Notes under the pieces: generated by a model
Seen by the model: the letters and a program-made list of their open reading frames with translations, nothing else
What the model was told of the DNA's origin: nothing
Database searches by the model: none
Position numbers and translations under genes: made by a program
Source: an uncultured Desulfobacteraceae bacterium
GTDB lineage: Bacteria; Desulfobacterota; Syntrophobacteria; BM002
Direction of reading: 5' to 3'
DNA length: 64,000 nucleotides
Assembly: GCA_964346905.1 (NCBI GenBank)
Contig: CAYFXH010000001.1
Location: 1,280-65,279, forward strand
Shown here: positions 2,427 to 49,061 of the stretch, one piece after another
Position numbering within the stretch: position 1 is the stretch's first letter
Layout of the letters: every line of letters begins with the position of its first letter

Positions 2427-2956
2427 TTGTGCCGTGTTTAATTCTGATTCCTAGCAGTTAGGTACCGATTGACTTCACCTTGATTGTTTCAACCGTAGCA
2501 TACCATCGTTGCTGAGGTCAAAAGCATAACTCACATGTGTACATACCCGAATCGAGGAATTCAAGAATCCAGGAATTCAAACAATGAAGATTTTCAAAAT
2601 TACAGACTTTAATCCGCAATCAAAAAATCATGTAGGCACCAGCCAATGTGTAATTTCGAAAACGGTTATGTACTTTGCTCCGCAGGATAGCTACACGGCT
2701 CCTGGCTCCTCGAGAGAATGTGACGCAATCCGTCATCCCGGCCAAGTCAGCCTGCTCCGGACGCGAGCCGGGATCCAGACGACGTCTCCTCCGCGAACGC
2801 GGGGAACCAGACACCAAATGACGTCATTGTAGCTTATTGGATTCCGGATCTCGCCCCGCGAAGCGGTGCTCGTCCGGAATGACGGGTTCGGCCAATTGTG
2901 ACATAGTTCCAAGGGGAGAGGAGGTTTTTGTAGAGTTACTCACATAACCGTTTTTC

Positions 2957-3062
2957 GATATTCGAAATTCTCGAGCCTTGCACCTTGTACCTTGCGCCTT
3001 CTGCCCGCTGCCCTCTGCCTTCTGCTCCATGCTCTATGCCCCATGCCCCATGCTCCCTGCTA
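2957..3062. repeat. Phased degenerate heptanucleotide tandem array (ccttgca/ccttgta/ccttgcg/ccttctg/cccgctg/ccctctg/.../ccccatg x2)
   Basis: About 12 consecutive 7-nt units kept in phase, seen directly; non-coding region 2430-3275. Confidence 0.7.
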
Positions 3063-3275
3063 AATGTTGCGACACATCCCACACCCCGTAAGCCTCAGTG
3101 TTCTTGGTGGATACACACCCAAACTGGGTGAAACCATGAACCATTTACTTGTGTGAAATGATGTTTACTATTACTATTGCGTCTGGCGGGTTCGTACAGG
3201 ATAATATTTCAAAACGTTCAGCGTTCAATTTGAACCAAAGGCAATCACTGTCTTGCCTAGTCACGGAGATTCAGG

Positions 3276-3902
3276 ATGAAAAAATCCATGTTCTTTTCGA
3301 TGCTGCTTGCCATTTTTTTCTGTGGTCCTGCCCAAAGCTTGGCAGAAAAAGCTCCGCAAAAGATCGCCGGGTTCGTGCTTGGCGACCAAGTTGCCCTGTA
3401 CATTGACCTGATTCGCATGGAGACGACTATGCCGATTCGTGATCAGCAGTATCTTCGTATAGCACAGACGAAAGATCTCGACGGCTACAAGAGTGGCACC
3501 ATCGCATTTGCCAACTGCGCTGAGCCGGGGCGAATCGTCCGAATCAAACTAAAATACGCTTTTTCGGACAAAGAGTTTTACAACGAGCTCCTGGAGCGAT
3601 TTAAAAAAAACTTCGGGGAACCGGATGAGTGGCGTGGAGACCCTTTCCACGTGATTATAGCCTGGAAATGGGCTTTCAGAAATGAGGCCAACAACAAAAT
3701 CAGTCTCACCCTTCAGCATAGCAGGGATGAGGAATATAAGTGGGGCAACTCGGTGAAGTTGACCAACACAACGCTTGTGGAGAAAGAACGGCTCTGTTAC
3801 CAGCAGAAAAAACCTGGGAAATCCGATGAGCAGAAAAGCGGTTTTGGCGCCAAGAAGAAAAGCCTGACAGAAAAAGACTACCAGCGATTCGTTCCAGAAT
3901 AG
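3276..3902 (+). CDS. Hypothetical secreted protein (N-terminal signal peptide)
   Basis: 208 aa; MKKSMFFSMLLAIFFCGPAQSLA signal sequence; no recognisable domain by eye. Confidence 0.5.
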   Translation: MKKSMFFSMLLAIFFCGPAQSLAEKAPQKIAGFVLGDQVALYIDLIRMETTMPIRDQQYLRIAQTKDLDGYKSGTIAFANCAEPGRIVRIKLKYAFSDKEFYNELLERFKKNFGEPDEWRGDPFHVIIAWKWAFRNEANNKISLTLQHSRDEEYKWGNSVKLTNTTLVEKERLCYQQKKPGKSDEQKSGFGAKKKSLTEKDYQRFVPE

Positions 3903-3921
3903 ATTTCCACCATACAGCTGC

Positions 3922-3952
3922 AGGGTGGGCGATGCCCACCCTACGTTTTTCT
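3922..3952 (+). terminator. Rho-independent terminator-like hairpin (AGGGTGGGC-GAT-GCCCACCCT followed by ACGTTTTTCT)
   Basis: 9-bp GC-rich perfect stem, 3-nt loop, T-run; 20 nt after stop of 3276..3902. The same palindrome recurs at 8951-8967. Confidence 0.5.
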
Positions 3953-3960
3953 AAAACGGT

Positions 3961-4079
3961 TAAAATCTAAAATCCTCAATTCCCACATTCGCAGTTCGAA
4001 ATTCGAAATTCGAAATTACTTCCCTATGCCCCATGCTCTATGCCCTATGCCCTATGCCTGCTTTAGCCACCTTAGACAC
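3961..4079. repeat. Phased heptamer tandem array (taaaatc x2 ... tcgaaat x3 ... ctatgcc x4 ...), about 17 units
   Basis: Units stay in 7-nt register across 119 nt; same words (tcgaaat, ccctatg) recur at 5569-6050, 7086-7140 and 7741-7960. Confidence 0.7.
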
Positions 4080-4080
4080 C

Positions 4081-5499
4081 TCACATAAGTGCGCTGGCCG
4101 CTGCACGGGCTATTTCAAGAAGATAGCGTGGGAATACACCCACCACCACCATTACGGTTACCAGACCCCCCGTGAGCACCTTGGTGGGAATGGACAATTG
4201 AAGTCGAGGCAAACGTTCATCCGACTCTAACAGGTAGGCGGCCCTGACTATCAAAATGTAGTAATACAGGGAAATTACCACATTGACCATTGCGATGAGC
4301 ACTAACATGAAGTACCCCTTTTTCATGGCGGCGATAAAGACCAGAAATTTGGCGGTGAAGCCGATGGTCGGGGGAATGCCGGCCAGTCCGAACATTCCGA
4401 GCATCAGGGCCATGGCAAGCATGGGGGAGCGGCGGTGTAATCCTGCCAGTTGGGCAATCTGCAAGTCACTGCCGTCATATGCCACCTTCACCACCACCAG
4501 AAAGCAGGTAAACTTCATCACTAGATAGGCCACAGCATAAAAAATCGCACCGGCATAGCCGTTTTGATTCATGCTGAGAATCCCGATCAGAACGTAGCCG
4601 GCATGGGAAATGCTTGAGTACGCCAACAGCCGCTTCATGTCCTTCTGCACAATCGCCACCAAATTCCCCAAGGTCATTGAGGCTATTGAAAGCGTAACCA
4701 GCACGTGAGCCAGATAGGTGCTGCTACCTGTGCTCAGGGCTACCGTCCTCATAAGGATTGCCACCGCCGCAACCTTGGAGGCCGTGGCAATATAGGCGGT
4801 GACCTGATTGGCAGCCCCCTGGTATGCGTCCGGGGCCCAGAAATGAAATGGGAAGACGGCAAGCTTAAAGAAGAAGCCGCACAGAGTGAGGAGCAACCCG
4901 ATGATGGCTGCCGGCCTCCCAATTGCACCGGGAAGCACCTTGATAATTTCCGCCACATAGGTGGTGTGGATAACCCCGTAGAGTGAGGCAATGCCAAAAA
5001 GCATCACCGCCGAGGCAAAAGCTCCCACCAGGAAATACTTAATGCCCGACTCCACATGTACGCCGTAACCCCTCCTGAGAGGAACCAATATGTAGAGCGA
5101 ATAACTGGAGAGTTCCAGAGCGACGTAGATGGTCAGCAACTCAACGCTGCTTACCAGTAGCATCATCGCCAGGGTGCATGTGCTCAAAAGGAGGTAGAAT
5201 TCTGGGTGGTGCCGCTCCTCTATACCATTAAGCTCAGAGCAGATACAGATCACGAGAAACAGACCCATGGCCAGAATGACCTTGAAAACCTGAGAAAAGA
5301 GATCCACCCGATAGACCTTAAAAAAGAGCGTTCCTTCCAGCCTAACTGAGGCCAAACACACTGCCACACCCACAGAGGCCAGGAAGAGGGCGATGAAGTA
5401 ATCCCTCCTAGGATTGGGTCGCACCACCAAAGCCAGGCTAAAGAAAACCGCGATCATGAACAAGAAATATAATTCAGGTATGAAGAGAGACCAATTCAC
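4081..5499 (-). CDS. nuoN: NADH-quinone oxidoreductase subunit N
   Basis: 472 aa, 14 TM-like segments; FPFHFWAPDAYQGA, ATASKVAA, KRLLAYSSISHAGY motifs align to NuoN (E. coli FHLWTPDVYQGAP / KRLLGYSSISHLGY). Confidence 0.85.
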   Translation of the reverse strand: MNWSLFIPELYFLFMIAVFFSLALVVRPNPRRDYFIALFLASVGVAVCLASVRLEGTLFFKVYRVDLFSQVFKVILAMGLFLVICICSELNGIEERHHPEFYLLLSTCTLAMMLLVSSVELLTIYVALELSSYSLYILVPLRRGYGVHVESGIKYFLVGAFASAVMLFGIASLYGVIHTTYVAEIIKVLPGAIGRPAAIIGLLLTLCGFFFKLAVFPFHFWAPDAYQGAANQVTAYIATASKVAAVAILMRTVALSTGSSTYLAHVLVTLSIASMTLGNLVAIVQKDMKRLLAYSSISHAGYVLIGILSMNQNGYAGAIFYAVAYLVMKFTCFLVVVKVAYDGSDLQIAQLAGLHRRSPMLAMALMLGMFGLAGIPPTIGFTAKFLVFIAAMKKGYFMLVLIAMVNVVISLYYYILIVRAAYLLESDERLPRLQLSIPTKVLTGGLVTVMVVVGVFPRYLLEIARAAASALM

Positions 5500-5568
5500 G
5501 GCTTCAACCTATATTGATCCGGAATGTACTGAGCTTGATTACAGTTTCACTACACGTCTAATCTGGCA

Positions 5569-5625
5569 TTAAATTCGAAATACGAAGCACGAAACAAATC
5601 CGAAATACGAATGTTCAAATGCTCC
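5569..5625. repeat. Heptamer array (cgaaata/cgaagca/cgaaaca/aatccga/aatacga); left arm of inverted repeat flanking 4HB gene
   Basis: Reverse-complementary in composition to 5976-6050 (gatttcg/aatttcg units). Confidence 0.6.
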
Positions 5626-5630
5626 AAAGA

Positions 5631-5996
5631 CTACTGACTCTTCTGCAATATGGCACCGAAAATATTCATCAGTTCGGTAGCTTCAATGATCAAAGTGTCT
5701 CGATCTTTTTCCTGTTCTTGATCTTTATTAGTGTCGACCAACCTTAGCCAATACCGGCTTTCTTTGGCCTCTTTACGGCAGATCTTGATTCGCATAATGA
5801 AGTCTTTTTTGCTGAGAGACTCATTAGCTTCAATGTAGTTCGATCCAACAGAGCCAGATGCCTTAACCAATTGTTTTCCATCTTCGATATTTGTAATAGT
5901 CCTCGGTAGTCTCTTTACGAAGGCCCTGACTTCCCTGGCAAAAGCCAGGGTGCGGTCTTCAAAATCATACTGTTTTGAATTTCGAATTTTGGACAT
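5631..5996 (-). CDS. Four-helix-bundle protein (23S rRNA intervening-sequence protein family, TIGR02436-like)
   Basis: 121 aa; motif KASGSVGSNYIEANES plus KICRKEAKESRYWLRL helices typical of IVS-encoded 4HB proteins. Sits on the same strand as the nuo genes, between nuoK and nuoN, flanked by inverted heptamer arrays. Confidence 0.7.
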   Translation of the reverse strand: MSKIRNSKQYDFEDRTLAFAREVRAFVKRLPRTITNIEDGKQLVKASGSVGSNYIEANESLSKKDFIMRIKICRKEAKESRYWLRLVDTNKDQEQEKDRDTLIIEATELMNIFGAILQKSQ

Positions 5997-6050
5997 TAGA
6001 ATTTGTTTCGGATTTCGATATTCGGATTTCGGATTTATTCCGCCTCAGGG
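5976..6050. repeat. Heptamer array (tgaattt/cgaattt/.../gatttcg x3); right arm of inverted repeat flanking 4HB gene
   Basis: Seen directly; overlaps 4HB start codon region. Confidence 0.6.
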
Positions 6051-6101
6051 TGTCCGTGTCTCCTTTTTCCCTTTTTTTTCTCGTTGCGATCGCCAGTTCC
6101 T

Positions 6102-6407
6102 TTACCATTTCAAAATGTTATAAGTTTCCGGGTTCAATGAACCCGTCCGCCTGTAGGCATAGACAATTAACGCCAGTCCCACCGAGACTTCTGCTGCTGC
6201 GATCGCAAAGATGAAAAGCACGAAGACCTGTCCCTCCAGCTGTTGCCAGCGTAGCGCTGCAGCGACAAAGGCCAGTGCGGCTGCATTCAGCATGATTTCC
6301 ACACCAATGAGCATCATGATCAGGTTGCGGCGGGCCACTGCGCAAACCACCCCCATCGCAAAAAGTATCCCTGCTAAAACCAAAACATGGCTGTAAGGCA
6401 CAATCAT
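6102..6407 (-). CDS. nuoK: NADH-quinone oxidoreductase subunit K
   Basis: 101 aa, 3 TM; LIGVEIMLNAAALAFVA motif; 4-nt overlap with nuoJ. Confidence 0.9.
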   Translation of the reverse strand: MIVPYSHVLVLAGILFAMGVVCAVARRNLIMMLIGVEIMLNAAALAFVAAALRWQQLEGQVFVLFIFAIAAAEVSVGLALIVYAYRRTGSLNPETYNILKW

Positions 6408-6931
6408 GATTCATCCTCTTTACGGTCGCCGCTCTCCTGTACATAGGCTTTGCCCAGATACAGAGCGCCGATCAGGGCTATAAGCAGCAGGAATGAGATG
6501 ATCTCCACTGAAAGCCAGTATTTCTGGAAAAGAAATCGCCCGAACACCCTCGGCTTTGCCAGGGCTGTTTCCAGAATCGTCTGGCTGCCTGGGTCTGTAG
6601 TAACTACAAGAACTGTAACAGCAAGATAGACAATGCCTAAGATACCGGCTGGGAACCATTCTCGTAGTGACGGCCTACGCAGGGCCGACGGTTCCACCCG
6701 AAGCATCATGATGATAAAAAGAAACAGGACCATAACTGCCCCGGCATAGATAATAATTTCCAGTGCGGCCAGAAGCGGTGCCCCGAAAAGATAATAGAGC
6801 ATGGCGCTCCCGAAGAAGGAGATGATCAAATAGACCACCGCATGCACCAGATTTTGCCGGGTAATGGCTAGCCCGGTGGCAACCAAAATCACGCCGGCTA
6901 AGACATAAAAAATGGCAGCATAAATGGTCAT
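6404..6931 (-). CDS. nuoJ: NADH-quinone oxidoreductase subunit J
   Basis: 175 aa multi-TM protein directly upstream of nuoK in conserved order. Confidence 0.85.
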   Translation of the reverse strand: MTIYAAIFYVLAGVILVATGLAITRQNLVHAVVYLIISFFGSAMLYYLFGAPLLAALEIIIYAGAVMVLFLFIIMMLRVEPSALRRPSLREWFPAGILGIVYLAVTVLVVTTDPGSQTILETALAKPRVFGRFLFQKYWLSVEIISFLLLIALIGALYLGKAYVQESGDRKEDES

Positions 6932-6944
6932 TCTCTTACCTTAA

Positions 6945-7140
6945 TCAGTAGTCAGTAGTCAGTAGTCAGAGAGGCATAGGGCTCAAGGCTCAGGGCGCAA
7001 GGAAAAAATTTCGTCTTCTACTGCCTTTAGCCTTACGCCTTGTGCCGTGCGCCTTTCATCAATCTGCAATCTGCAATCTCAAATCTGAAATCCCCTAATT
7101 CCGAAATCCGCAATTACTTCCCTATGCATGCTGTCTCGAG
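6945..7140. repeat. Long composite heptamer array in nuoJ-nuoI spacer (cagtagt x3, gctcaag/gctcagg, tagcctt/acgcctt/gcgcctt, tctgcaa x2/tctcaaa/tctgaaa, ccgaaat)
   Basis: Seen directly; ~200 nt of non-coding DNA inside an otherwise tightly coupled operon. Confidence 0.7.
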
Positions 7141-7148
7141 TCTCCCTC

Positions 7149-7685
7149 TCACGGCAAATTGCTTTTTATGTTCACCGGTTTATCTTCTTTCACGTGTGCT
7201 CCTTTGCCGCCAACCTCGGTTACCACTCCAGCGTATTTATAGAAGTTGTACTCGTTATTTTTGCCGCCGTGATCCACCAGAAGATCTTCTTTTTCATAGA
7301 CGAGTTTCAAAATGTCGCGCTCACATGTCTCAAAATAGGGCGTTAGTTGGATCGCCAGGGTGGGACACGCCTCTTCGCAAAGTCCACAGTAGATGCAGCG
7401 GGCAAAGTTGATGCGAAACCAGCGGGCGTAGCGGCGGCCATCCTCCTGCTCTGCCGATTGCATGGAGATGCAACTTACCGGGCAAACGGCCGAGCACAGG
7501 TAGCAGGCGACACAGCGCTCACCACCATCGGGATCCCGCGTAAGGATGATTACTGCCCGTGACCGCTCCGGCAGAGGCCGCTTGTACTCTGGGTATTCCT
7601 CGGTAATGGGTTTGCGAAAGAGATGCTTAAATGTAGTAGCAAACCCACTAGCCAAGGCCTTTAATGCTTCCAAGGTCGCCTGCAC
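7149..7685 (-). CDS. nuoI: NADH-quinone oxidoreductase subunit I (2x[4Fe-4S] ferredoxin)
   Basis: 178 aa; CVACYLCSAVCP and CIYCGLCEEACP cluster motifs. Confidence 0.9.
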   Translation of the reverse strand: MQATLEALKALASGFATTFKHLFRKPITEEYPEYKRPLPERSRAVIILTRDPDGGERCVACYLCSAVCPVSCISMQSAEQEDGRRYARWFRINFARCIYCGLCEEACPTLAIQLTPYFETCERDILKLVYEKEDLLVDHGGKNNEYNFYKYAGVVTEVGGKGAHVKEDKPVNIKSNLP

Positions 7686-7740
7686 GAAAACCCCTCTAAA
7701 CTTTTGATTGCAGTCCTACTTCATAATCTGCGCTGTTAGG

Positions 7741-7960
7741 CCTTGCAAATTCGAATATCGAAATTCGAAATCCGAAACAATGTTCAAATTCTCAAAATTG
7801 GTCCTCCGGATCCCCCAGCATACGGGCGGGTCCCAGTTTCGAATGACCAAAACTTAATACAAAGGCTTTCATTCAGAGTTGTTTTGAATATTGGAGCATT
7901 TGAATTTCGAATTTGTTTGGAAATTCGTGCTTCGGATTTCGGATTTTTAGATCAAAAGAA
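7741..7960. repeat. Inverted pair of tcgaaat/ccgaaac heptamer arrays (7741-7800 and 7890-7950) in nuoI-nuoH spacer
   Basis: Arms are reverse complements in composition (attcgaa... vs ...ttcggat). ORF 7743..8042 inside it is judged spurious. Confidence 0.6.
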
Positions 7961-8930
7961 CTGCTCCCGTCACCATGATGTTCAGCAGGGCCAGGGGTAC
8001 CAGAACCTTCCAGCCCAGGTGCATGAGTTGATCATAGCGTAGTCGTGGCAAAGTCCCCCTCACCCAAATCATGAGGATGGCAACCACAAGGATTTTAATC
8101 AGGAACCACACCACTGGTGGCAGTATGGGCCCGCGCCATCCCCCCAAGAAAAAGACGGCCACTAGCGCCCCGAATACCTGCAGATTCACGTATTCTCCGA
8201 GGAAAAACAGGCCAAAGCGCATTCCGCTATATTCTGTGTGGTAACCGGCGCCCAGTTCATTTTCCGCCTCTGGAAGGTCGAAGGGAATACGCTTGGTCTC
8301 GGCCATGGCGCTGATAAGAAAGATGGCGAAAGAGACCGGCTGCACCAGAACGAAGGGATAGTCAGCCTGGGCGCGGACAATGTCCACCAGGCTGAAGGAA
8401 CGTGCCAGCATAACTATGGGAACCAAGGAAAGCCCCAAAGAGAGCTCGTAGCTGATCATTTGGGCGGCACCACGAATACCACCCAAAAGACTGTATTTTG
8501 AGTTTGAAGCCCAGCCTCCCAGGGCAACTCCGTACACACCCAGAGAAGCCAGAGCAAACACATAAAGCAATCCTACATTCAGATCCGTGATCACAAGAGG
8601 AATTGTCTTCCCGAGAACGGTTACACTGGCACCAAAGGGGACAACTGCAAAGATAAGCAGTGCCTCGGCAGCAACCACTGCCGGAGCCAAAAGGAAAAGA
8701 GCACGGTCTGCGGCCTCAGGAACCGTATCCTCTTTGGTCAACATCTTGACAGTGTCGGCAAGGGGTTGCAGCAAGCCAAACTTTCCAGCCCGATTCGGCC
8801 CGTAGCGAATTTGTAGCCGGCCAAGGAATTTTCTCTCCAGCAGCACCAGGTAGGCAGCCAGGAGAAGCAGTCCAACCAGAACCACCCCCAGTTTTACGAT
8901 GAGCAGGATGAATCCGATAAGCCAGGTCAT
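7947..8930 (-). CDS. nuoH: NADH-quinone oxidoreductase subunit H
   Basis: 327 aa, 8 TM; LLERKFLGRLQIRYGPNR and EAENELGAGYHTEYSGMRFGLFFLGEY motifs. Confidence 0.9.
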   Translation of the reverse strand: MTWLIGFILLIVKLGVVLVGLLLLAAYLVLLERKFLGRLQIRYGPNRAGKFGLLQPLADTVKMLTKEDTVPEAADRALFLLAPAVVAAEALLIFAVVPFGASVTVLGKTIPLVITDLNVGLLYVFALASLGVYGVALGGWASNSKYSLLGGIRGAAQMISYELSLGLSLVPIVMLARSFSLVDIVRAQADYPFVLVQPVSFAIFLISAMAETKRIPFDLPEAENELGAGYHTEYSGMRFGLFFLGEYVNLQVFGALVAVFFLGGWRGPILPPVVWFLIKILVVAILMIWVRGTLPRLRYDQLMHLGWKVLVPLALLNIMVTGAVLLI

Positions 8931-8950
8931 AGGATTCCGTTCTCATGGAT

Positions 8951-8967
8951 GGTGGGCATCGCCCACC
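8951..8967. repeat. GGTGGGCATCGCCCACC palindrome (second copy of the 3922-3942 hairpin)
   Basis: Exact reverse complement of the element at 3924-3940. Confidence 0.6.
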
Positions 8968-8984
8968 AAACGGTTATTTCATGA

Positions 8985-9172
8985 ATCCTGCAGGAGCAAC
9001 GTCCTCGTTGCGATCCCACAATCCACAAACTACACAATCGTTTATCGCCAGCAGCCTCCGGCCCGGCTTTCAGGCCGGAGGGAGGGGCCTTATCGCAAGC
9101 AGAGCTTGCTCTACAGGAGTTCTCATCACATGCATTGAGCAACGCTTTATGGCGGGCACAGAGGCCCGCCCT
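8985..9172. repeat. Hairpin-rich intercistronic element, copy 1 (nuoG-nuoH spacer)
   Basis: Shares blocks cctgCaggagcaAcgtCctcgttgcgatcc and tttaTggcgggcacagaggcccgccct with copy 2 at 11768-11912; internal hairpins ctccggcc...ggccggag, gcaagc-agag-cttgc, ggcgggc...gcccgcc. Confidence 0.6.
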
Positions 9173-9214
9173 ACCGGTCTCTCATTGAAGTATGGGTAAT
9201 TCATCTTGACCATT

Positions 9215-11725: not shown

Positions 11726-11767
11726 TGGTCAATAAAAGGGGTCAGGCAGTTCGAGTTAATGCTCGTT

Positions 11768-11912
11768 GTCCTGTAGGAGCACCGTGCTCGTTGCGATCCA
11801 TTCGCATGTGTACCAATTCATCTATCAAATCGCGACCTGGAGGTCGCTCCTACAGACAATTTACCAATGATGGCTTTTAGGCGGGCACAGGAGGCTCCGC
11901 CCTATTGAGATT
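11768..11912. repeat. Hairpin-rich intercistronic element, copy 2 (nuoF-nuoG spacer)
   Basis: Blocks cctgTaggagcaCcgtGctcgttgcgatcc and tttaggcgggcacaggaggctccgccct; long-range complementarity ctgtaggagc ... gctcctacag. Confidence 0.6.
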
Positions 11913-11976
11913 ATCTACCTTTAGACGCATTAGGCACTTCAGCTCACTTTAGGCATGTCTAGCCTGACAGCTGACA

Positions 11977-13254: not shown

Positions 13255-13296
13255 CTGTCCTCGCCTCTCGGTTCAGGGACGCATCACTATTCTAAG

Positions 13297-13378
13297 AGGT
13301 GCGATGTGGGATATGGGATGTGTACTGCCAGAAGACGGGCTTCGAAGAATCTCTATCTCACATCTCACATCCTCGCTC
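13297..13378. repeat. Hairpin element built from GATGTGR heptamers (gcgatgtgggatatgggatgtg ... atctcacatctcacatcctcgc)
   Basis: Inverted arms seen directly in the nuoE-nuoF spacer; same word family as 18155-18245. Confidence 0.6.
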
Positions 13379-13421
13379 CAGGACAGCCGCATATTGTGCT
13401 TCTTCATTATGATGTAACCAT

Positions 13422-13970
13422 CTAAGCCTGTGATTTGAGCTTGTCTAAGATCTCATCTAGTTTCTCGGGCGTAAGCGGTCCGTATACTTTCTTGTTGATT
13501 AACATAGCTGGTGCTCTATCGCAGTAGCCAATGCAGCACACCGGCAATAGGGTAAACAGTCCGTCTGCCGTGGTTTCCCCCATCTCTATCCCTAATTTCC
13601 GGCAGAGGTGCTCAATAATTGACTCATGTCCTTCCATCCAGCAGATGACACTGTCACAGATGTGGATAACGTATTTTCCAACCGGCTCTCTGTAGACGAA
13701 GGTGTAGAACGTAGCGAGTTCTTCCACCTCCAGGGGAGACATATTCAGGAGTGCGGCCACCTCCTCAACAGCCTCATCGCTCAGATAGCCGTAGTGGTCT
13801 TGGACAGCGAACATCACATCCACCACCAGCTCCCGGGGATGTTCGACGGTGGCTATGTGTTCTTCGAGGGAATTTTTCAACGGTTCAGGCAACATTGGAT
13901 GTCTAGACCCACATGAGCTCAATGGAGTGCTGGAGTAACAGTACTCCACTACTCCCGTTTTCCTGGCCAC
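13422..13970 (-). CDS. nuoE: NADH-quinone oxidoreductase subunit E (24 kDa, thioredoxin-like 2Fe-2S)
   Basis: 182 aa; CDSVIC...CCIGYCDRAP cysteine pattern; ORF-track start is GTG, true start uncertain. Confidence 0.85.
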   Translation of the reverse strand: MARKTGVVEYCYSSTPLSSCGSRHPMLPEPLKNSLEEHIATVEHPRELVVDVMFAVQDHYGYLSDEAVEEVAALLNMSPLEVEELATFYTFVYREPVGKYVIHICDSVICWMEGHESIIEHLCRKLGIEMGETTADGLFTLLPVCCIGYCDRAPAMLINKKVYGPLTPEKLDEILDKLKSQA

Positions 13971-14014
13971 CCCAGATTACCTAGATGCAACTGACCACGG
14001 ACAACGGACATTAT

Positions 14015-16405: not shown

Positions 16406-16788
16406 TCAAGTCCCCCCTTCTTCCAGATATACAGAAGACCAAGGAGCAGAACGATAATGAAGAACGATATTTGCAACCAGCCCGCCCAGCCGAGGCTATC
16501 GTAAGAAATGGCCCAGGAGAAAATGTAGGCCGCCTCCACATCAAAAATGAGAAAGAAGATGGCAACAAGGTAAAAAGGAACGGGGTAACGAAGACGAGCC
16601 GAGCCGGTAGGAATTACCCCGCTTTCATAAGGCCTGAGTTTCTCAGGATTGCTTTTCTTTTCCCCGAGCCAGGAAGCAAAAAAGAGGAGCACCACCACCA
16701 GACCTAGCACCATAAGACCGTAGATAGCCAAGCTAAAAAGACCCGGCTCCCAGGGCGAGAGTGTACCGACAGTTAGGATTGGTTGCAC
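16378..16788 (-). CDS. nuoA: NADH-quinone oxidoreductase subunit A
   Basis: 136 aa, 3 TM; PYESGV...[12 protein letters not shown] motifs; 28-nt overlap with nuoBCD start. Confidence 0.85.
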
Positions 16789-17383: not shown

Positions 17384-18154
17384 TTGCAACAGCAGATTCA
17401 GTTTGCAAATAACGTTGGCGAAAAGTTAGCGGGCACCTTCCATGTCCCTTCAGAGGATTCCCACTGTGGCATCATCCTGGGTCACTGTTTCACCTGCTCC
17501 AGACATACCAGAGTCCTGCGCGATATAAGTCACGGCCTCGTAGATGCGGGCTTCAACATACTGCGATTTGACTTTTCTGGAAACGGTCAGAGTGAAGGAA
17601 GTTTCTCTGAGTCCTTGTATTCCAAGCAGATCACCGAAATGAAGACCGCAGCCTCTTTTATGTCTGCTCAAGGAGTCTCATGGGTCGGACTGGCTGGTCA
17701 CAGCATGGGTGGTATGGTTGGCCTCCTAGCCGCATCACAGATGGATACCGTGAGGGCGGTTTGCACCCTTGCTGCGAAAGCATCTCCTCTGGAAATCGAT
17801 CATTTTCTCCATGAGAGTCAGCGTCAGGAATTACGGTCCACGGGCAGAGTCCACTTCATCAGCAGGGGCCGCAATTTAGAGCTTACGGAAGCGTTTTTCG
17901 TAGACGCAGCAAGATATAAACTTTCGGATATTATCTCCTCTTTGCCACAGCCCCTATTGATAGTGCACGGCGATCAGGATGAAATAATCTCTGTAGAGGA
18001 TGCCTATCGACTTCACCAATTCAAACCGGTGAATACCGACCTGGCCATTATTCCAGGTGCGGACCACATGTTCAGCCATGACGAGCATCGCCAAAAGGTT
18101 GTTGAACTGGTAGTGGAGTGGTTTAAGAGTCTGGCCATAAAAGACGGATTTTAG
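17384..18154 (+). CDS. Alpha/beta-fold hydrolase
   Basis: 256 aa; nucleophile elbow GHSMGG, catalytic His near C-terminus (GADHMF); TTG start with AAAGGA RBS. Confidence 0.7.
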   Translation: MQQQIQFANNVGEKLAGTFHVPSEDSHCGIILGHCFTCSRHTRVLRDISHGLVDAGFNILRFDFSGNGQSEGSFSESLYSKQITEMKTAASFMSAQGVSWVGLAGHSMGGMVGLLAASQMDTVRAVCTLAAKASPLEIDHFLHESQRQELRSTGRVHFISRGRNLELTEAFFVDAARYKLSDIISSLPQPLLIVHGDQDEIISVEDAYRLHQFKPVNTDLAIIPGADHMFSHDEHRQKVVELVVEWFKSLAIKDGF

Positions 18155-18268
18155 ATTGCTGATATGCGATGTGAGATGTGAGATGCAGAATATATAATCC
18201 AAGACCCTTCCTGAACACCCACATCGCATATCAGACATCCGACATTTGAATTTGTTTCGAACTTCGGT
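18155..18268. repeat. GATGTGA-heptamer hairpin element (ctgatatgcgatgtgagatgtgagatgcag ... cacccacatcgcatatcagacatccgacat) plus adjacent ttgaatttgtttcg unit
   Basis: Inverted arms with a TATATAAT-containing loop (18189-18196); seen directly. Confidence 0.6.
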
Positions 18269-18319
18269 CTCTTGTGGCCGATACGGAGATCGGCCCTACG
18301 AAAAGAAGGTGGACCAGTT

Positions 18320-21040: not shown

Positions 21041-21100
21041 TCGCAGAGCGCATGGCTTGATGAGACAAGATCGCTTTGACGCCCGGTAATGCGCGCGTGA

Positions 21101-21265
21101 TCAAATTCGAAGCTAGAATGTCGAAATCCGAAACAATTCTCAAATGTTCAAAATTCAAATGATCAAAACTAAGACACCAATTTCTCTAGTGCCAATTTCT
21201 AGCATTGGAGAATTCGGTTTTTGAATTTGTTTCGTGCTTCGTGCTTCGGATTTAGAATTTGGATT
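21101..21265. repeat. Inverted pair of cgaaatc/ttcaaat heptamer arrays between sucA and sucB
   Basis: Left arm attcgaagctagaatgtcgaaatccgaaacaattctcaaatgttcaaaattcaaatg; right arm ttcggtttttgaatttgtttcgtgcttcgtgcttcggatttagaatttgg. Confidence 0.6.
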
Positions 21266-29990: not shown

Positions 29991-30252
29991 CAATGAGCCG
30001 TTTTTAAATGCAGACTAGCTATTTGAATTCTATTTCGTCACATTCTTGCCCGCCTGAGAGTCGGAGCACTCTGCGACATTCTCGCAAACGGTAGGTGGAC
30101 TCGGTTTCAGGGAAGAGGAGAATTCAGGAGTCAGTAGCCAGAATCCAGCAGGAAAAATACGAAAACAAATGCTTTACCTACTGACTCCTAGCTCCTGACT
30201 ACTGTATTTACGGCTCACCTTAGCTGGCGGATCCGAGAAAGGCCGTTCTCAT

Positions 30253-37712: not shown

Positions 37713-38363
37713 ATGGCGACCGTTGTGAGCAATGACCACATTAAAATTGATCGGTTAGAATTGGGGCCGTTCGGCACTAATGGGTACATCTTAACCTGCC
37801 AAAAGACACAAGAGAGTGTGGTGATTGACGCCCCCGGCCAAGTCGACAGAGTCCTGGAAGCGCTGGAGGATACACACCCCCAATACATCCTAATTACTCA
37901 TGACCATTTTGATCATGTGGGTGGTCTTTCCCGGTTGAAATCAGCCTTGAACGTTCCCGTCGCTGCCCACCCTGCAGATGGTGACGGGCTTCCCCTACCT
38001 GCGGATATTCTCCTACATGACGGTGAGGTACTATCCTTTGGAGCCAGAGAGCTTACGGTGTTGCACACACCGGGCCACACTCTGGGAAGCATATGCTTGC
38101 TGACCGGGAATTACTTGATTGCGGGGGATACGTTATTTCCGGGAGGTCCGGGTAAAACCCAATCACCCGCAGACTTCCGGCAGATTATTGAATCCATAAC
38201 CCAGAAGATTTTCACATTGCCGGACAACACCCACGTGTATCCCGGACACGGGGAAGCAACAACGGTCAAGGAGGCAAAAAAACAGTACGAGGTTTTCTCA
38301 ACCCGACCGCACGATCCGGATCTTTGCGGGGATGTGGTTTGGGATAAATCGCAGAGCGCATAG
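37713..38363 (+). CDS. MBL-fold metallo-hydrolase
   Basis: 216 aa; ITHDHFDHVGG (HxHxDH) and downstream His/Asp ligands. Confidence 0.8.
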   Translation: MATVVSNDHIKIDRLELGPFGTNGYILTCQKTQESVVIDAPGQVDRVLEALEDTHPQYILITHDHFDHVGGLSRLKSALNVPVAAHPADGDGLPLPADILLHDGEVLSFGARELTVLHTPGHTLGSICLLTGNYLIAGDTLFPGGPGKTQSPADFRQIIESITQKIFTLPDNTHVYPGHGEATTVKEAKKQYEVFSTRPHDPDLCGDVVWDKSQSA

Positions 38364-38498
38364 CGCAGAGCGTATATTCAAAAACTGCAAAGTTATTTTA
38401 AATATCGCAAACAAATGCTAGTCGTTGAATTTACCAGAATGATTTTAGTCTAGCCGTTTTTCTAAACGCTATGCGCTTTGCGCTCTGCGCTATGCGAG
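38350..38498. repeat. Inverted heptamer repeat (cgcagagcgcatagcgcagagcg ... cgctatgcgctttgcgctctgcgctatgcg) bracketing the convergent gene ends
   Basis: Arms at 38350-38373 and 38467-38498 are near-perfect reverse complements; candidate bidirectional terminator/REP element. Confidence 0.5.
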
Positions 38499-38499
38499 C

Positions 38500-39195
38500 T
38501 TACCAACCTATTACCACTCGGTGAAAACCTTCCGCCAGTTCAAAATCCTCCCCTTCAGCCATCTCCCTGCACCGCTCTCTCAGCCAATCTTCAGGGTCCG
38601 GATTGGGGAATCCCTGTACCTGGCTCTGGTGGCAACGTAGGGCCGCAATTTTAAGATCAAAGGTATCGGTGATGTCCGAGCGATAGTTAATGTCTTCCGC
38701 CGCCCAGAATAAGATCTCATCTACATTGTGAGGCTCCAAACCTTCCTCTAACAAATCAGGGTAGGCAAGATGATCCCGAGAGTACGGGAAAACTGCATCG
38801 AGAGTAACCTGCCCGGCAATGCGATGGTCGCGATGCCAGAGGTAACGACGGTAGGGATCCGAGGTCACCACGATCCTGGGCTGGTACATGCGTATAAAGC
38901 GAACGATCTGCTTACGAAATTCCGGCGTGTCTTCCAACTCCTGATCCGGGTATCCCAGGAATATTACTTCTCGGACCCCAAGGATCTTGGCCGCAGCCTG
39001 TTGCTCCTTTTTTCTGATTTCGGCCAATTGTTCAGGTTTGAGGCTCCGGTCGCTGGTTCCCTTGTCGCCATTGGTGCAGACAACGTAGACAACCTGCTTT
39101 CCTTCTCTGGTCCAGCGCGCTACTGTTCCTGCCACCCCGAATTCGGCGTCATCCGGATGAGCTGTTACCACCAGTACGTCCGTTGCTTTCGTCAC
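38500..39195 (-). CDS. PIG-L/LmbE-family N-acetylglucosaminyl deacetylase (MshB/BshB-like)
   Basis: Start chosen at GTG (Val71 of ORF 38500..39405) with AGGAGG RBS 6 nt upstream, giving 232 aa; signature VLVVTAHPDDAEFGVAGT and downstream His/Asp. Confidence 0.75.
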   Translation of the reverse strand: MTKATDVLVVTAHPDDAEFGVAGTVARWTREGKQVVYVVCTNGDKGTSDRSLKPEQLAEIRKKEQQAAAKILGVREVIFLGYPDQELEDTPEFRKQIVRFIRMYQPRIVVTSDPYRRYLWHRDHRIAGQVTLDAVFPYSRDHLAYPDLLEEGLEPHNVDEILFWAAEDINYRSDITDTFDLKIAALRCHQSQVQGFPNPDPEDWLRERCREMAEGEDFELAEGFHRVVIGW

Positions 39196-46522: not shown

Positions 46523-46540
46523 CGAAGGCAAACAGCAGGG

Positions 46541-46576
46541 TTCAGATTGCAGATTTTAGATTGCAGATTTTAGATC
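46541..46576. repeat. Tandem 14-mer (cagattttagattg x2) 3 direction of the DMT gene / far upstream of the ECF operon
   Basis: Seen directly. Confidence 0.5.
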
Positions 46577-46698
46577 TAGGAACTAAGACCAAGAGTGTGC
46601 CAGTGATAATCACATGTGTGTTTTCAAAAAGGACATGTTGAACGTGCATCGAAAAAAACCACCTCCTAGATATTCACAATCTCAAATCTCAAATGGTC

Positions 46699-48322: not shown

Positions 48323-48971
48323 GAAACGGAGTCTTTTTCAGAAGGCGGCCATTGCCAGCTTCGTTGGAATCTTGCTCGCCTCGACGCTGATGGCCACCAG
48401 TCTCCTGGCCCACAAGGTGAACGTGTTTGCCTGGGTTGAGGGTGACATAATCTTCGTGGAGGGCTATTTCCCCGGTGGCAAAAACGCGCAGAATTCACTG
48501 GTGGAAGTATTCAACCAGGCTGGAGCCAAACTTTTGGAAGGAAGAACCAACGAAAAGGGCGAGTTCTCCTTCAAGACTCCAGAAAAGACCGATCTTAAGA
48601 TCGTGCTCAGCGCCGGGATGGAGCACAGGAACGACTTCACTGTGTTTGCCAGCGACTTTGCAGAAACAGCGCCATCGCCGGCCGCACCCTTCCGAGAACT
48701 CCAGGAGAGCGAGACACTCTCCGGTGAGGTTGATGAGGACATGCGGCGGCTGGAAGCACTAATCAACCGAACGTTGGACCGCAAGCTTACCCCGGTAATC
48801 AAACTCATCCGCGACTCCAGGAGAGAGGGCCCGACTTTTTCTGAGATCGTTGGAGGTATTGGTTATATTTTCGGACTCGTTGGGGTGGCGCTTTATTTTA
48901 GTAATAGAAAAAAGAAAGAAGGCGGTCAGCGGTCAGCGGTCAGCGGTCAGCAAGATACGGACGGGCAGTAA
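48309..48971 (+). CDS. CbiN/NikL-like accessory membrane protein with periplasmic beta-sandwich-like domain
   Basis: N-terminal TM, HKVNVFAWVEGDIIFVEGYF...EKGEFSFKTPEKTDLKIVL, C-terminal TM; position between cbiM and cbiQ. Confidence 0.45.
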   Translation: MPPGRKRSLFQKAAIASFVGILLASTLMATSLLAHKVNVFAWVEGDIIFVEGYFPGGKNAQNSLVEVFNQAGAKLLEGRTNEKGEFSFKTPEKTDLKIVLSAGMEHRNDFTVFASDFAETAPSPAAPFRELQESETLSGEVDEDMRRLEALINRTLDRKLTPVIKLIRDSRREGPTFSEIVGGIGYIFGLVGVALYFSNRKKKEGGQRSAVSGQQDTDGQ

Positions 48972-49052
48972 TCATTTCCAAGTGCTGCTGTACGAATTAT
49001 CACCTGTTGCGTTTTGATTCTTGCTTATAGCTGACGGCTGATAGCTGATAGC
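48923..49052. repeat. (cggtcag)x4 tandem at the 3 end of 48309..48971 and imperfect inverted copy gctgacggctgatagctgatagc 60 nt downstream
   Basis: Seen directly; encodes GGQRSAVSGQQ tail; arms could pair as a 3 hairpin. Confidence 0.5.
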
Positions 49053-49061
49053 TCAAAAGAA

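What the first reader, a model, noticed from the sequence alone, without database searches (positions are those of the whole stretch)
2957..7140. Pervasive phased heptanucleotide tandem arrays (STRR-like) in intergenic DNA
At least ten intergenic regions contain runs of 7-nt units kept in register. Examples are 2957-3062, 3961-4079, 5569-5625, 5976-6050, 6945-7140, 7741-7960, 21101-21265, 46541-46576 and 48923-49052. They draw on a limited word set (tcgaaat, ccctatg, cagtagt, gcgcctt, gatgtga, gcgcaga, cggtcag, tctcaaa). This resembles cyanobacterial STRR elements. The gene content (NuoEFG, OGDH) indicates a non-cyanobacterial genome.
Basis: seen in the sequence. Interest (0 to 1): 0.6.

Follow-up and report, generated by a model that had tools for sequence, protein, structure and literature searches.

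The report
Heptamer-repeat hairpin cassettes in operon spacers
The 7-base repeat runs are real, and most are the paired, mirror-image arms of small hairpin-forming inserts between genes, one of which carries a small four-helix-bundle gene that we find bracketed by such repeats across many bacterial phyla and in phage contigs.

Summary
Observation confirmed. The window holds 17 period-7 tracts against about 0.3 expected by chance. 85% of tract bases lie in the 16% of DNA that is non-coding. Single registers run for 12-16 units.

The source is a Desulfobacterota genome, not a cyanobacterium, so "STRR-like outside cyanobacteria" is right. It is not new in kind: heptamer arrays are published for Geobacter, Beggiatoaceae, Bacteroidetes and Xanthomonas.

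The arrays are mostly not free-standing. They occur as inverted pairs whose RNA is predicted to fold into long stems of 6 bp plus one mismatch. One pair (5569-6042) encloses a gene for a PF05635 "23S rRNA intervening-sequence protein" (IVP, Avd-like), inserted between nuoK and nuoN.

This array-ORF-array cassette recurs in other operons and other phyla:
- 58 of 75 metagenomic IVP genes have a flanking period-7 tract, against 5.6% of background windows.
- 18 of 27 IVP genes on viral contigs do too.
- So do nearly all of the 10 plasmid-borne genes inspected (cyanobacteria, Bacteroidota, Chloroflexota).

The arms are conserved while synonymous sites are saturated, and both arms change word together between families.

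Best model, inferred and not shown: these are co-transcribed IVS-like elements processed as dsRNA, as RNase III does for the Coxiella rRNA IVS. The origin of the 7-nt period is unresolved.

The parts
2945..3062 (+). Unpaired array upstream of ORF 3276-3902. It starts with a short CGAAAT-type piece (TTCGATATTCGAAATTC), followed by 12 in-register units drifting from CCTTGCA to CTCCCTG.
   Evidence: The RNA fold shows no structure (z=+0.6).
3983..4065 (-). Unpaired array of 11 in-register units (TTCGAAA x3.5, then CCCTATG x5). It lies in the convergent spacer 3' of the nuoN-like gene.
   Evidence: The fold gives z=0.1.
5569..5625 (-). 3' (right) arm of IVP cassette A: TTTGAACATTCGTATTTCGGATTTGTTTCGTGCTTCGTATTTCGAATTT, read on the transcribed strand.
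   Evidence: Inverted repeats I2 and I12. Alignments A1 and A3. Pairs with the left arm in the fold.
5631..5996 (-). IVP gene of 121 aa, a four-helix-bundle protein (PF05635 / TIGR02436), homologous to PDB 2RLD. It is co-oriented with the nuo operon, between nuoK and the nuoN-like gene.
   Evidence: Pfam E=7e-12. TIGR02436 E=7e-19. PDB 2RLD E=5.5e-41 with a family profile. dN/dS=0.04 against the L083 copy.
5997..6042 (-). 5' (left) arm of cassette A: AAATCCGAAATCCGAATATCGAAATCCGAAACAAATTCTA, ending at the IVP ATG.
   Evidence: 35 of 36 nt identical to L083 and 100% identical to L196, while synonymous sites of the ORF are saturated.
6936..7055 (-). Two features in the nuoI|nuoJ spacer. CTACTGA x3.5 lies 14 nt upstream of the nuoJ start. 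Next to it is an imperfect hairpin of GGCNNAR units against GCCTTNN units.
   Evidence: The fold has a stem with period-7 mismatches (z=-1.5).
7055..7140 (-). AATCTGC-type units continuing in one register into GAAATCC and ATTACTT-CCCTATG units. This is the rest of the nuoI|nuoJ spacer.
7741..7955 (+). Element B. It has CGAAAT-type arms homologous to those of cassette A, in the opposite orientation, and no IVP ORF. It sits in the nuoH|nuoI spacer.
   Evidence: Inverted repeat I8. Alignments A2 and A3. The arms pair in the fold.
13285..13385 (-). Hairpin with GATGTGA-type arms in the nuoE|nuoF spacer.
   Evidence: The fold gives z=-1.0.
13988..14010 (-). Short array, CAACGGA x3.3, in the nuoBCD|nuoE spacer.
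18154..18270 (+). Hairpin (GATGTGA against CACATCG arms) between the hydrolase gene and sucA. It is followed by a solitary CGAAAT-type right arm (TTTGAATTTGTTTCGAACTTCGG).
   Evidence: Inverted repeat I7. Fold z=-5.4. AAACAAAT motif hit at 18250.
21100..21265 (+). Element C, a CGAAAT-type cassette without the IVP ORF, in the sucA|sucB spacer. It keeps the leader and ATG region and the 3' end of the cassette.
   Evidence: Alignments A2 and A3. Fold z=-2.0.
30119..30215 (+). Hairpin with CAGGAGT/CAGTAGC-type arms. Its loop carries the cassette leader motif AAACAAATG.
   Evidence: Fold z=-2.9. Motif hit.
38344..38501 (+). Hairpin between convergent genes (CGCAGAG/CGCATAG arms against CGCTATG/CGCTCTG arms). 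Its loop carries AAACAAATG.
   Evidence: Inverted repeat I3, 89% complementary. Fold z=-5.1. Motif hit.
46535..46694 (+). AGATTGC/AGATTTT array (a 14-nt double unit) with a short inverted partner, AATCTCA x2.4, about 100 nt downstream.
   Evidence: The fold is not significant (z=+0.8).
48912..49059 (+). Hairpin with GCGGTCA x4.3 against GCTGATA x4.4, between the nikL-like gene and cbiQ. The left arm forms the last codons of the nikL-like ORF.
   Evidence: The fold has a 6 bp + 1 mismatch stem (z=-4.95). Translation.

Best explanation
The arrays belong to the STRR / long-simple-sequence-repeat class of heptamer-phased intergenic DNA. In this genome most of them are the two arms of small inverted-repeat elements lodged in transcribed spacers.

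The complete form is a promoterless cassette: heptamer array (about 4 units), then ATG, a 120-aa IVP gene and its stop codon, then the inverted heptamer array. It is inserted in sense orientation inside an operon, here between nuoK and the nuoN-like gene. Elements B and C, and probably the other hairpins, are copies without the ORF.

Shown here:
- The architecture.
- Its spread across phyla and onto viral contigs.
- Insertion of arrays and ORF together as one unit.
- Conservation of the arms beyond synonymous saturation.
- Concerted change of both arms between families.
- Indel polymorphism within the arms.

Inferred:
- The element is transcribed with the host operon.
- The arms pair into a 25-40 bp imperfect dsRNA stem.
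- That stem is processed by RNase III, as demonstrated for the homologous IVP-containing intervening sequence of Coxiella 23S rRNA, where cleavage falls at the first heptamer. Processing would segment the polycistronic mRNA and release or regulate the IVP message.
- Arrays grow, shrink and drift by replication slippage.

Why the unit is 7 nt, and what IVP does, remain open.
For: Inverted pairing:
- Inverted pairs are found by the repeat finder.
- RNA folds give stems with mismatches every 7 nt: z=-5.4, -5.1, -4.95 and -2.9, and the ends of cassette A pair over about 40 bp.

The cassette recurs elsewhere:
- The same cassette, with the same arms, sits in an ABC-transporter operon, next to a methylmalonyl-CoA mutase gene, in a ParA/AAA operon and in the orthologous nuo locus of a related organism.
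- Of 75 metagenomic IVP genes, 58 have a period-7 tract within 200 nt, against 47 of 835 background windows (Fisher p about 1e-27 to 1e-34). Other periods give 0-8 hits.
- The two flanks are inverted complements in 55 of 75 loci, against 20 of 75 for direct similarity.
- Nearly all of the 10 plasmid-borne IVP genes inspected have such flanks, as do 18 of 27 on viral contigs.

Position and orientation:
- IVP is co-oriented with both neighbours in 42 of 54 loci and never antisense to both. Median gaps are 60-68 nt.
- In the window, 13 of 35 co-directional or convergent spacers carry tracts, against 0 of 9 divergent ones.

Constraint on the arms:
- IVP dN/dS is 0.04 with pS=0.715 (saturated), yet the left arm is 35 of 36 nt identical.
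- Arm-arm duplex energy averages -40 kcal/mol within a family and -23 between families.

Insertion as a unit:
- In Chitinophagales, relatives without the cassette have a 5-15 nt nuoF|nuoG spacer with no array.

RNase III precedent:
- Coxiella IVS, PMC4990558.
Against: - There are no transcript or cleavage data for this organism, so RNase III processing is argued by analogy only.
- Three arrays (2945-3062, 3983-4065, 46535-46585) have no convincing partner and fold no better than shuffles.
- Several stems have weak z-scores (-0.75 to -1.5).
- Within the CGAAAT family, the variable position of the unit is not compensated between arms. Pairing is therefore imperfect and could be a by-product of inverted duplication.
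- No target-site duplication, transposase or reverse transcriptase was found, so how copies spread is unknown.
- The orthologous nuoI|nuoJ spacer of L196 has the same length but is unalignable. Many arrays may therefore be fast-turnover DNA with no function.
Confidence: 0.6

Rival explanations
1. The arrays are neutral microsatellite-like by-products. Replication slippage happens to favour 7-nt units (the idea attributed to Mrazek 2007), so they accumulate in non-coding DNA without function and without any link to a mobile element.
For: - Unit-number or indel polymorphism occurs between strains carrying an identical IVP: L196 vs L197 and L190 vs L191.
- The orthologous nuoI|nuoJ spacer has turned over completely.
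- Words drift gradually along an array.
- There are 152 different canonical words among 330 arrays.
Against: - Slippage alone does not explain matched inverted arrays 50-400 nt apart.
- It does not explain the 20-28-fold enrichment next to one gene family.
- It does not explain arm conservation beyond saturated synonymous sites.
- It does not explain the non-geometric length distribution, with a mode near 4 units.
- It does not explain arrays arriving together with the ORF at an otherwise 5-15 nt spacer.
Confidence: 0.12
2. The arrays are multivalent binding sites for a protein on single-stranded RNA or DNA, with one unit per subunit. Candidates are the pentameric IVP itself or a cold-shock-domain protein with a footprint of about 7 nt. 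They would act as translational or transcriptional regulators of the adjacent gene.
For: - Typical array size is 3.5-4.5 units.
- S23p/IVP of Xanthomonas is reported to be a homopentamer (cited in PMC4990558).
- CTACTGA x3.5 lies 14 nt upstream of the nuoJ start, as with TAACTGA in Beggiatoaceae (PMC4679880).
- Deleting heptamers changes reporter output in Nostoc, with an unidentified partner postulated (bioRxiv 10.1101/2022.06.06.494920).
- CspB binds heptamer repeats (cited in PMC4679880).
Against: - The window alone has 16 distinct words, so a binder would have to read the period rather than the sequence.
- No binding data exist.
- Most arrays here are predicted to be double-stranded with their partner, not single-stranded.
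Confidence: 0.15
3. These are DNA-level mobile elements, like MITEs or REPINs. The arms would be terminal inverted repeats, or hairpins recognised on single-stranded DNA by a trans-acting enzyme encoded elsewhere, such as a Y1 or RAYT transposase. RNA structure would be irrelevant.
For: - Near-identical arms occur in unrelated genomic contexts.
- ORF-less derivatives B and C lie beside a full copy.
- Copies occur on plasmids and viral contigs.
- Many homologues sit on contigs of only 0.5-1 kb, as expected of multi-copy repeats that break assemblies.
- One copy has an IS200/IS605 Y1 transposase inserted in its arm (L186).
Against: - No target-site duplication is visible at the cassette borders.
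- No transposase lies in the window or next to the cassettes, apart from the single L186 case.
- The strong sense-orientation bias within operons (42 of 54, with no case antisense to both neighbours) is not expected for a simple cut-and-paste MITE. Selection against antisense insertions could nevertheless produce it.
Confidence: 0.13

Closest known systems
Cyanobacterial STRR sequences (short tandemly repeated repetitive heptanucleotides; Mazel et al. 1990, from my own knowledge) and Nostoc heptamer repeats (PMC4692102; bioRxiv 10.1101/2022.06.06.494920)
   Same: Tandem 7-nt units, intergenic, dispersed, often inside operons, several word families per genome, sometimes in inverted pairs. Heptamer arrays on Nostoc, Aulosira, Anabaena and Planktothrix plasmids bracket IVP genes exactly as here.
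   Different: The host is Desulfobacterota. The canonical words (CCCCAGT, TTGGTCA, CAACAGT, GGGGAYT, TTTTGAA) do not occur in tandem here. Arrays here are short (3-6 units per word), not tens of copies.
IVP/S23p-containing intervening sequence (IVS) of 23S rRNA in Coxiella and Leptospira (PMC4990558)
   Same: An ORF of the same protein family (PF05635), in sense orientation within a host transcript, bounded by inverted repeats that form a stem. Tandem heptamers (GACAGAT x2-3, strain-variable) lie just upstream of the ORF. In Coxiella, RNase III cuts the stem at the first heptamer.
   Different: The element here lies in mRNA operon spacers (nuo, suc, ABC transporters, cas operons), not in rRNA helices. 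Excision is not demonstrated. Here the protein is under strong purifying selection (dN/dS 0.04), whereas the Coxiella ORF is reported to be decaying.
Geobacter metallireducens multicopy heptanucleotide elements: GGACCGG x4 at 49 loci, and MTYCTGA x5 at 16 sites drawn as strand-switching loops (PMC2700814)
   Same: A related phylum-level lineage (former Deltaproteobacteria). Four or five tandem heptamers, multicopy, and apparently inverted in arrangement for the second class. The NNNCTGA word class is also present here.
   Different: Different words. The elements were interpreted as regulator binding sites or regulatory RNAs. The passages I read draw no link to IVP genes.
TAACTGA direct repeats of marine Beggiatoaceae, some Cyanobacteria and Bacteroidetes (PMC4679880)
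   Same: Heptamer direct repeats of 2-6 copies, intergenic, often a few nucleotides upstream of start codons. Here CTACTGA x3.5 lies 14 nt upstream of nuoJ. The patchy phylogenetic distribution overlaps the taxa in which IVP genes turned up on plasmids.
   Different: A single dominant word, almost always in direct and not inverted arrangement. No hairpin or ORF association is described.
REP/BIME-REPIN elements and Correia/NEMIS elements (my own knowledge; REPINs in PMC3116915)
   Same: Short dispersed intergenic palindromic elements, co-transcribed within operons. They affect mRNA processing or stability, and Correia elements are RNase III targets.
   Different: Those elements are not built from phased heptamers. 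They have a defined consensus per genome and depend on RAYT or IS-type transposases. None carries an IVP gene.
Avd accessory protein of diversity-generating retroelements (PMC10053308)
   Same: IVP belongs to the same four-helix-bundle family as Avd.
   Different: No reverse transcriptase or template/variable repeat pair was seen in the window, or among the called genes next to the cassettes whose neighbours I listed. The ORF stands alone between heptamer arrays.

Membership tests
Cyanobacterial STRR | Tandem repeats with a 7-nt unit | tested here: met
   TRF and the lag-7 scan give 17 tracts against 0.3 expected.
Cyanobacterial STRR | Located in non-coding, often intra-operon, DNA and dispersed in many copies | tested here: met
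   28-fold enrichment in non-coding DNA. 12-13 of 44 spacers carry a tract, including several gaps of the nuo operon. Only 64 kb could be examined.
Cyanobacterial STRR | Canonical unit sequences STRR1 CCCCAGT, STRR2 TTGGTCA, STRR3 CAACAGT | tested here: not met
   No tandem copy of any of the three.
Cyanobacterial STRR | Host is a (heterocystous) cyanobacterium | tested here: not met
   Closest NuoH relatives are Desulfobacterales and Syntrophobacteraceae MAGs at 80-83% identity. NuoEFG and OGDH are present.
IVP-containing intervening sequence (IVS) | ORF of the S23p / PF05635 family | tested here: met
   PF05635 E=7e-12, TIGR02436 E=7e-19, PDB 2RLD E=5.5e-41 with a family profile.
IVP-containing intervening sequence (IVS) | Bounded by complementary termini that form a stem enclosing the ORF | tested here: met
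   The predicted fold of 5560-6050 pairs the two arms over about 40 bp. 55 of 75 homologous loci have inverted flanks.
IVP-containing intervening sequence (IVS) | Inserted in a 23S rRNA helix | tested here: not met
   It lies between nuoK and the nuoN-like gene. There is no rRNA in the window (Rfam gave 0 hits).
IVP-containing intervening sequence (IVS) | Excised from the transcript by RNase III | not testable with these tools
   Needs RNA end mapping or an in vitro cleavage assay. The precedent is PMC4990558 only.
MITE / REPIN-type mobile element | Terminal inverted repeats | tested here: met
MITE / REPIN-type mobile element | Target-site duplication and a cognate transposase (IS or RAYT) | tested here: not met
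   No duplication is visible at the borders of cassettes in five contexts. No transposase is in the window. A Y1 transposase occurs only as a secondary insertion in L186. The rest of the genome could not be searched.
Diversity-generating retroelement | Avd together with a reverse transcriptase and a template/variable repeat pair | tested here: not met
   Neighbours of IVP are nuo, ABC-transporter, cas and other host genes. No reverse transcriptase appears among the called genes of the loci I listed. PADLOC gave 0 hits.
Beggiatoaceae-type TAACTGA repeats | Direct repeats of TAACTGA immediately upstream of start codons | tested here: not met
   No TAACTGA tandem. The related CTACTGA x3.5 lies 14 nt upstream of nuoJ.

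The most novel reading that the evidence does not exclude
Stand-alone IVP (Avd-like, PF05635) genes bracketed by inverted tandem heptamers form one widespread class of promoterless, sense-inserted 'intervening-sequence cassettes'. They live in operon spacers, plasmids and phages across Desulfobacterota, Cyanobacteria, Bacteroidota and Chloroflexota.

On this reading the 23S rRNA IVS is just the best-known special case. Many orphan heptamer arrays, including cyanobacterial STRRs, would be arms or relics of such cassettes. IVP would be the long-missing factor that binds, protects or propagates heptamer arrays, possibly together with a host reverse transcriptase in the way Avd acts in DGRs. That could also explain a fixed 7-nt stutter.

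The statistical association and the cassette architecture are shown here. The roles proposed for IVP and for a reverse transcriptase are conjecture.
Probability: 0.3. Interest if true: 0.8.

Novelty: new variant of a known kind. Interest (0 to 1): 0.6.

Why it matters
Heptamer repeats (STRRs) have been used for fingerprinting cyanobacteria since 1990, and heptamers are reported as the over-represented long simple repeat in many bacteria. No origin or function has been established, and one recent study explicitly postulates an unidentified binding partner.

Thousands of "four helix bundle protein" genes (PF05635) are likewise annotated without a role outside DGRs. Tying the two together gives both problems a concrete handle. 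The candidate unit is defined as array-ORF-array. A biochemical partner to test is available in IVP. A processing enzyme to test is available in RNase III. Cultured carriers exist, including Nostoc and Geobacter.

The link also matters in practice. These cassettes sit inside essential operons (complex I, 2-oxoglutarate dehydrogenase, cas operons). They break metagenome assemblies. In one case here the array forms the last codons of a neighbouring reading frame.

Tried and rejected
- Rfam at gathering threshold over the whole window gave 0 families, and ARAGORN found 0 tRNAs. The arrays match no known RNA family.
- PADLOC gave no defence-system match for IVP.
- The consensus scan of 2800-8100 found no minus-strand terminator inside the nuo spacers, and one plus-strand promoter-like site at 5975-6002, antisense to the operon. 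This is only weak support for read-through.
- No published canonical heptamer word is tandem in the window.
- I tried to measure strain polymorphism of the arrays with L081 and L082, which are the same organism at 99.9-100% identity. Those records are N-masked exactly over the arrays, so they were uninformative.
- The exact NuoH protein is not on record in the contig index. The organism was placed by relatives instead.
- I looked for IVP remnants in the other 80 nuoH loci with an iterated HMM. Only 3 IVP genes were found: the window, L070 and L079.
- The idea that the absence of nuoL and nuoM next to the cassette is an assembly collapse was rejected. The same nuoK-IVP-nuoN order occurs in a related organism with 87% IVP identity.
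- I considered a formal covariation test on the stems of the CGAAAT family. Unit indels make the alignment ambiguous, so I compared arm-arm duplex energies across families instead.
- Elhai et al. 2008 and Mrazek et al. 2007 are not held in the library. What I say about them rests on citations in other papers or on my own knowledge.

Full report
**1.

A lag-7 identity scan (21-nt window, at least 70% identity) gives 17 tracts and 858 nt, against 0.3 tracts in shuffles. Periods 3-6, 8-13 and 15 give 0-3 tracts each, and period 14, the double period, gives 10. A stricter scan gives 5 tracts against 0 in dinucleotide-preserving shuffles.

85% of tract bases fall in the 16% of the window that is non-coding, a 28-fold enrichment. 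12-13 of the 44 spacers of at least 40 nt carry a tract. Reading the sequence in sevens confirms long single registers across changes of word: 12 units at 2976-3062, 11 at 3983-4065 and about 16 at 7022-7135.

**2. Gene context and organism.**

The region 4081-16788 is a minus-strand complex I operon: nuoA, a fused nuoBCD, nuoE, F, G, H, I, J, K and one antiporter-like subunit. Arrays occupy most of the larger spacers of this operon.

Arrays also occupy several other spacers:
- the spacer upstream of sucA, and the sucA|sucB spacer;
- a cbiM / nikL-like / cbiQ operon;
- two convergent spacers.

None of the 9 divergent (promoter-only) spacers has a tract, against 13 of 35 co-directional or convergent ones (p=0.04).

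The closest NuoH relatives, at 80-83% identity, are Desulfobacterales and Syntrophobacteraceae MAGs. The genome is therefore not cyanobacterial.

**3. Anatomy: mostly inverted pairs, one of them enclosing a gene.**

The repeat finder and direct reading show that most arrays come as two arms of complementary words, 20-400 nt apart. As RNA, these fold into long stems in which 6 paired bases alternate with one mismatch:
- 18150-18250: z=-5.4
- 38344-38493: z=-5.1
- 48915-49058: z=-4.95
- 30115-30220: z=-2.9

Other stems are weaker. Three arrays (2945-3062, 3983-4065, 46535-46585) have no convincing partner.

The pair 5569-5625 / 5997-6042 encloses ORF 5631-5996. This ORF is a PF05635 "23S rRNA intervening sequence protein", also called TIGR02436 four-helix-bundle protein. 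It is homologous to PDB 2RLD and belongs to the family that includes the DGR protein Avd (PMC10053308). The ends of this 490-nt element pair over about 40 bp.

Elements B (7741-7955) and C (21100-21265) have homologous arms but no IVP ORF, and B is inverted relative to A. The 8-mer AAACAAAT, which sits between the left arm and the IVP start codon, occurs 8 times against 2.8 expected. Seven of those lie inside elements, including the loops of two hairpins built from unrelated words. This suggests that at least some ORF-less hairpins derive from cassettes.

**4. The cassette is a dispersed, conserved unit.**

The IVP has more than 8000 homologues. Many are 75-87% identical and sit on contigs of 0.5-1 kb, as expected of repeats that break assemblies.

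Copies with the same arms (left AAATCCGAAATCCGAATATCGAAATYCGAAACAAAT; right TTTGAACATT...ATTTGTTTCG...) occur in four other contexts:
- between an ABC ATPase gene and its permease;
- after a methylmalonyl-CoA mutase gene;
- between a ParA-like gene and an AAA gene;
- at the orthologous nuoK|nuoN site of a related organism.

Between the window copy and L083 the protein is under strong purifying selection (dN/dS=0.04). Synonymous sites are saturated (pS=0.715), yet the left arm is 35 of 36 nt identical. In the orthologue L196 the left arm is 100% identical, while the neighbouring nuoI|nuoJ spacer has the same length but is unalignable and built from other heptamers. Strains with an identical IVP differ by indels of roughly 30 nt in the right arm.

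**5. The association of IVP with inverted heptamers is general.**

I scanned metagenome contigs with a profile of 12 diverse IVPs and recovered 80 loci at 36-61% identity.

| Region scanned | Windows with a period-7 tract |
|---|---|
| 200 nt upstream of the ORF | 43 of 77 |
| 200 nt downstream of the ORF | 49 of 78 |
| Either side | 58 of 75 |
| Both sides | 30 of 75 |
| Background windows in the same contigs | 47 of 835 (5.6%) |
| nuoH loci from 80 genomes chosen without regard to IVP | 74 of 4976 (1.5%) |

Periods 5, 6, 8 and 9 give 0-8 hits in the same flanks. Fisher p is about 1e-27 for upstream and 1e-34 for downstream flanks against background, and 2e-11 for IVP-contig background against the nuoH loci.

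The two flanks are inverted complements (z>3) in 55 of 75 loci, against 20 of 75 for direct similarity.

A tblastn search of 72,556 plasmids finds IVP in only 18 records. Fourteen are cyanobacterial (Nostoc, Planktothrix, Aulosira, Dolichospermum, Anabaena, Pseudanabaena), 2 are Bacteroidota and 2 are Chlorohelix. Nearly all of the ten inspected are bracketed by inverted heptamers. Examples are AATTCAA/TTTTGAA, AATTCGC/GCGAATT, ATGAAGG/TTCATAA and AATCCCC+AATCGTA. They lie inside operons, for instance cas2|cas1, csx2|cas1, drmD|MmeI and RND adaptor|permease.

On viral contigs, 18 of 27 IVP genes have such flanks. One is perfect: (AATTCGT)x4-ATG...TAA-(TTACGAA)x4.

IVP is co-oriented with both neighbours in 42 of 54 cases and never antisense to both. 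Median gaps are 60-68 nt.

There are 152 distinct canonical words among 330 arrays, so the period is conserved and the sequence is not. Array length has a mode near 4 units, and few arrays exceed 5.5 units. The arms of one family pair with each other at an average of -40 kcal/mol, and with arms of other families at -23. Both arms therefore change word together.

An empty-site comparison shows that arrays and ORF arrive together. Two Chitinophagales genomes have array-IVP-array (465 nt) between nuoF and nuoG. Four relatives have a 5-15 nt spacer with no array. One of the two copies carries an in-frame stop.

**6. Mechanism.**

Shown here: the architecture, the insertion as a unit, the sense orientation in transcribed spacers, the constraint on the arms, the concerted change of arms, and slippage-type polymorphism.

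From the literature: the homologous IVP-containing IVS of Coxiella 23S rRNA is bounded by a 28-bp stem. It carries strain-variable tandem heptamers (GACAGAT) just upstream of the ORF, and RNase III excises it in vitro with the 5' cut at the first heptamer (PMC4990558).

Inference: the elements here are co-transcribed with their operons, fold into imperfect dsRNA stems and are processed in the same way, with slippage generating and reshaping the arrays. I put this at about 0.6.

Rivals are neutral slippage products, multivalent protein-binding sites (IVP pentamer or a cold-shock-domain protein), and DNA-level MITE-like elements. Each explains part of the data. None explains the matched inverted arms together with the IVP association and the arm conservation. 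The reason for a 7-nt unit is unresolved.

**7. Comparison with what is known, and novelty.**

Heptamer arrays outside cyanobacteria are documented in:
- Geobacter metallireducens: GGACCGG x4 at 49 loci, and MTYCTGA x5 at 16 sites drawn as strand-switching loops (PMC2700814);
- Beggiatoaceae and Bacteroidetes: TAACTGA (PMC4679880);
- Xanthomonas and Nostoc (PMC4692102).

A regulatory effect with an unknown partner is reported in Nostoc (bioRxiv 10.1101/2022.06.06.494920).

I could not find any general description of IVP genes bracketed by inverted heptamers and inserted in mRNA operons, plasmids and phages. Searches of the open literature returned only the single Coxiella rRNA case. I therefore rate the whole as a new variant of a known kind. 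The membership tests show it fails the word and host criteria for STRR proper, and the rRNA-location criterion for an IVS.

Noticed in passing
window 4081-6407; L196 1098-3366: The complex I operon goes from nuoK directly to a single 472-aa antiporter-like subunit. nuoL and nuoM are absent, whereas relatives have about 3.5 kb holding them at this place. The IVP cassette sits exactly at this junction. The same order occurs in a related organism, so it is not an assembly artefact.
   Followed up: partly
window 14015-16405: nuoB, nuoC and nuoD are fused into one 796-aa ORF. Several relatives (L001, L005, L008, L014, L016, L017) show no nuoE, nuoF or nuoG match between nuoBCD and nuoH.
   Followed up: no
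window 48870-48971: The GCGGTCA array forms the last codons of the nikL-like ORF (...GGQRSAVSGQQDTDGQ*), beyond the end of the family model at residue 201 of 220. The array may have extended or replaced the C-terminus.
   Followed up: partly
L093 1117-2873; L097 1027-3118; L099 1-3333: In Nostoc, Anabaena and Pseudanabaena plasmids, the IVP cassette sits between cas2 and cas1, or between csx2 and cas1. In the first two cases it is antisense to the cas genes, an exception to the usual sense orientation.
   Followed up: no
L186 434-846: An IS200/IS605-type Y1 transposase gene is inserted right after the first 19 nt of the right arm of an IVP cassette. This suggests the arms can be targets for hairpin-seeking insertion sequences.
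   Followed up: no
window 7800-7840; L183 about 1910-1960: A small GC-rich piece (GGGACCCRCCC...GGA.TCC) is nested inside CGAAAT-type arms, both in element B of the window and in the right arm of the L183 cassette. It may be a second tiny dispersed repeat that inserts into heptamer arrays.
   Followed up: no
L017 12605-12773; L008 10490-10586; L016 10717-10834: Syntrophobacteraceae relatives carry a GGAGCRA array, then a loop, then a CTCAGTC array just after nuoK. Unit numbers differ between genomes. In L017, three tandem copies of the whole right half are present.
   Followed up: no
L081, L082 (GCA_012974945.1, GCA_011774045.1): These public MAG contigs are 99.9-100% identical to the window. 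A source labels the identical IVP 'Gammaproteobacteria bacterium', which disagrees with the Desulfobacterota affinity of the nuo genes. The stored copies are N-masked over several stretches, including some arrays.
   Followed up: partly
window 3276-3902: A 208-aa ORF with a signal-peptide-like N-terminus and no Pfam or NCBIfam match is flanked on both sides by CCCTATG-type arrays in direct, not inverted, orientation.
   Followed up: no
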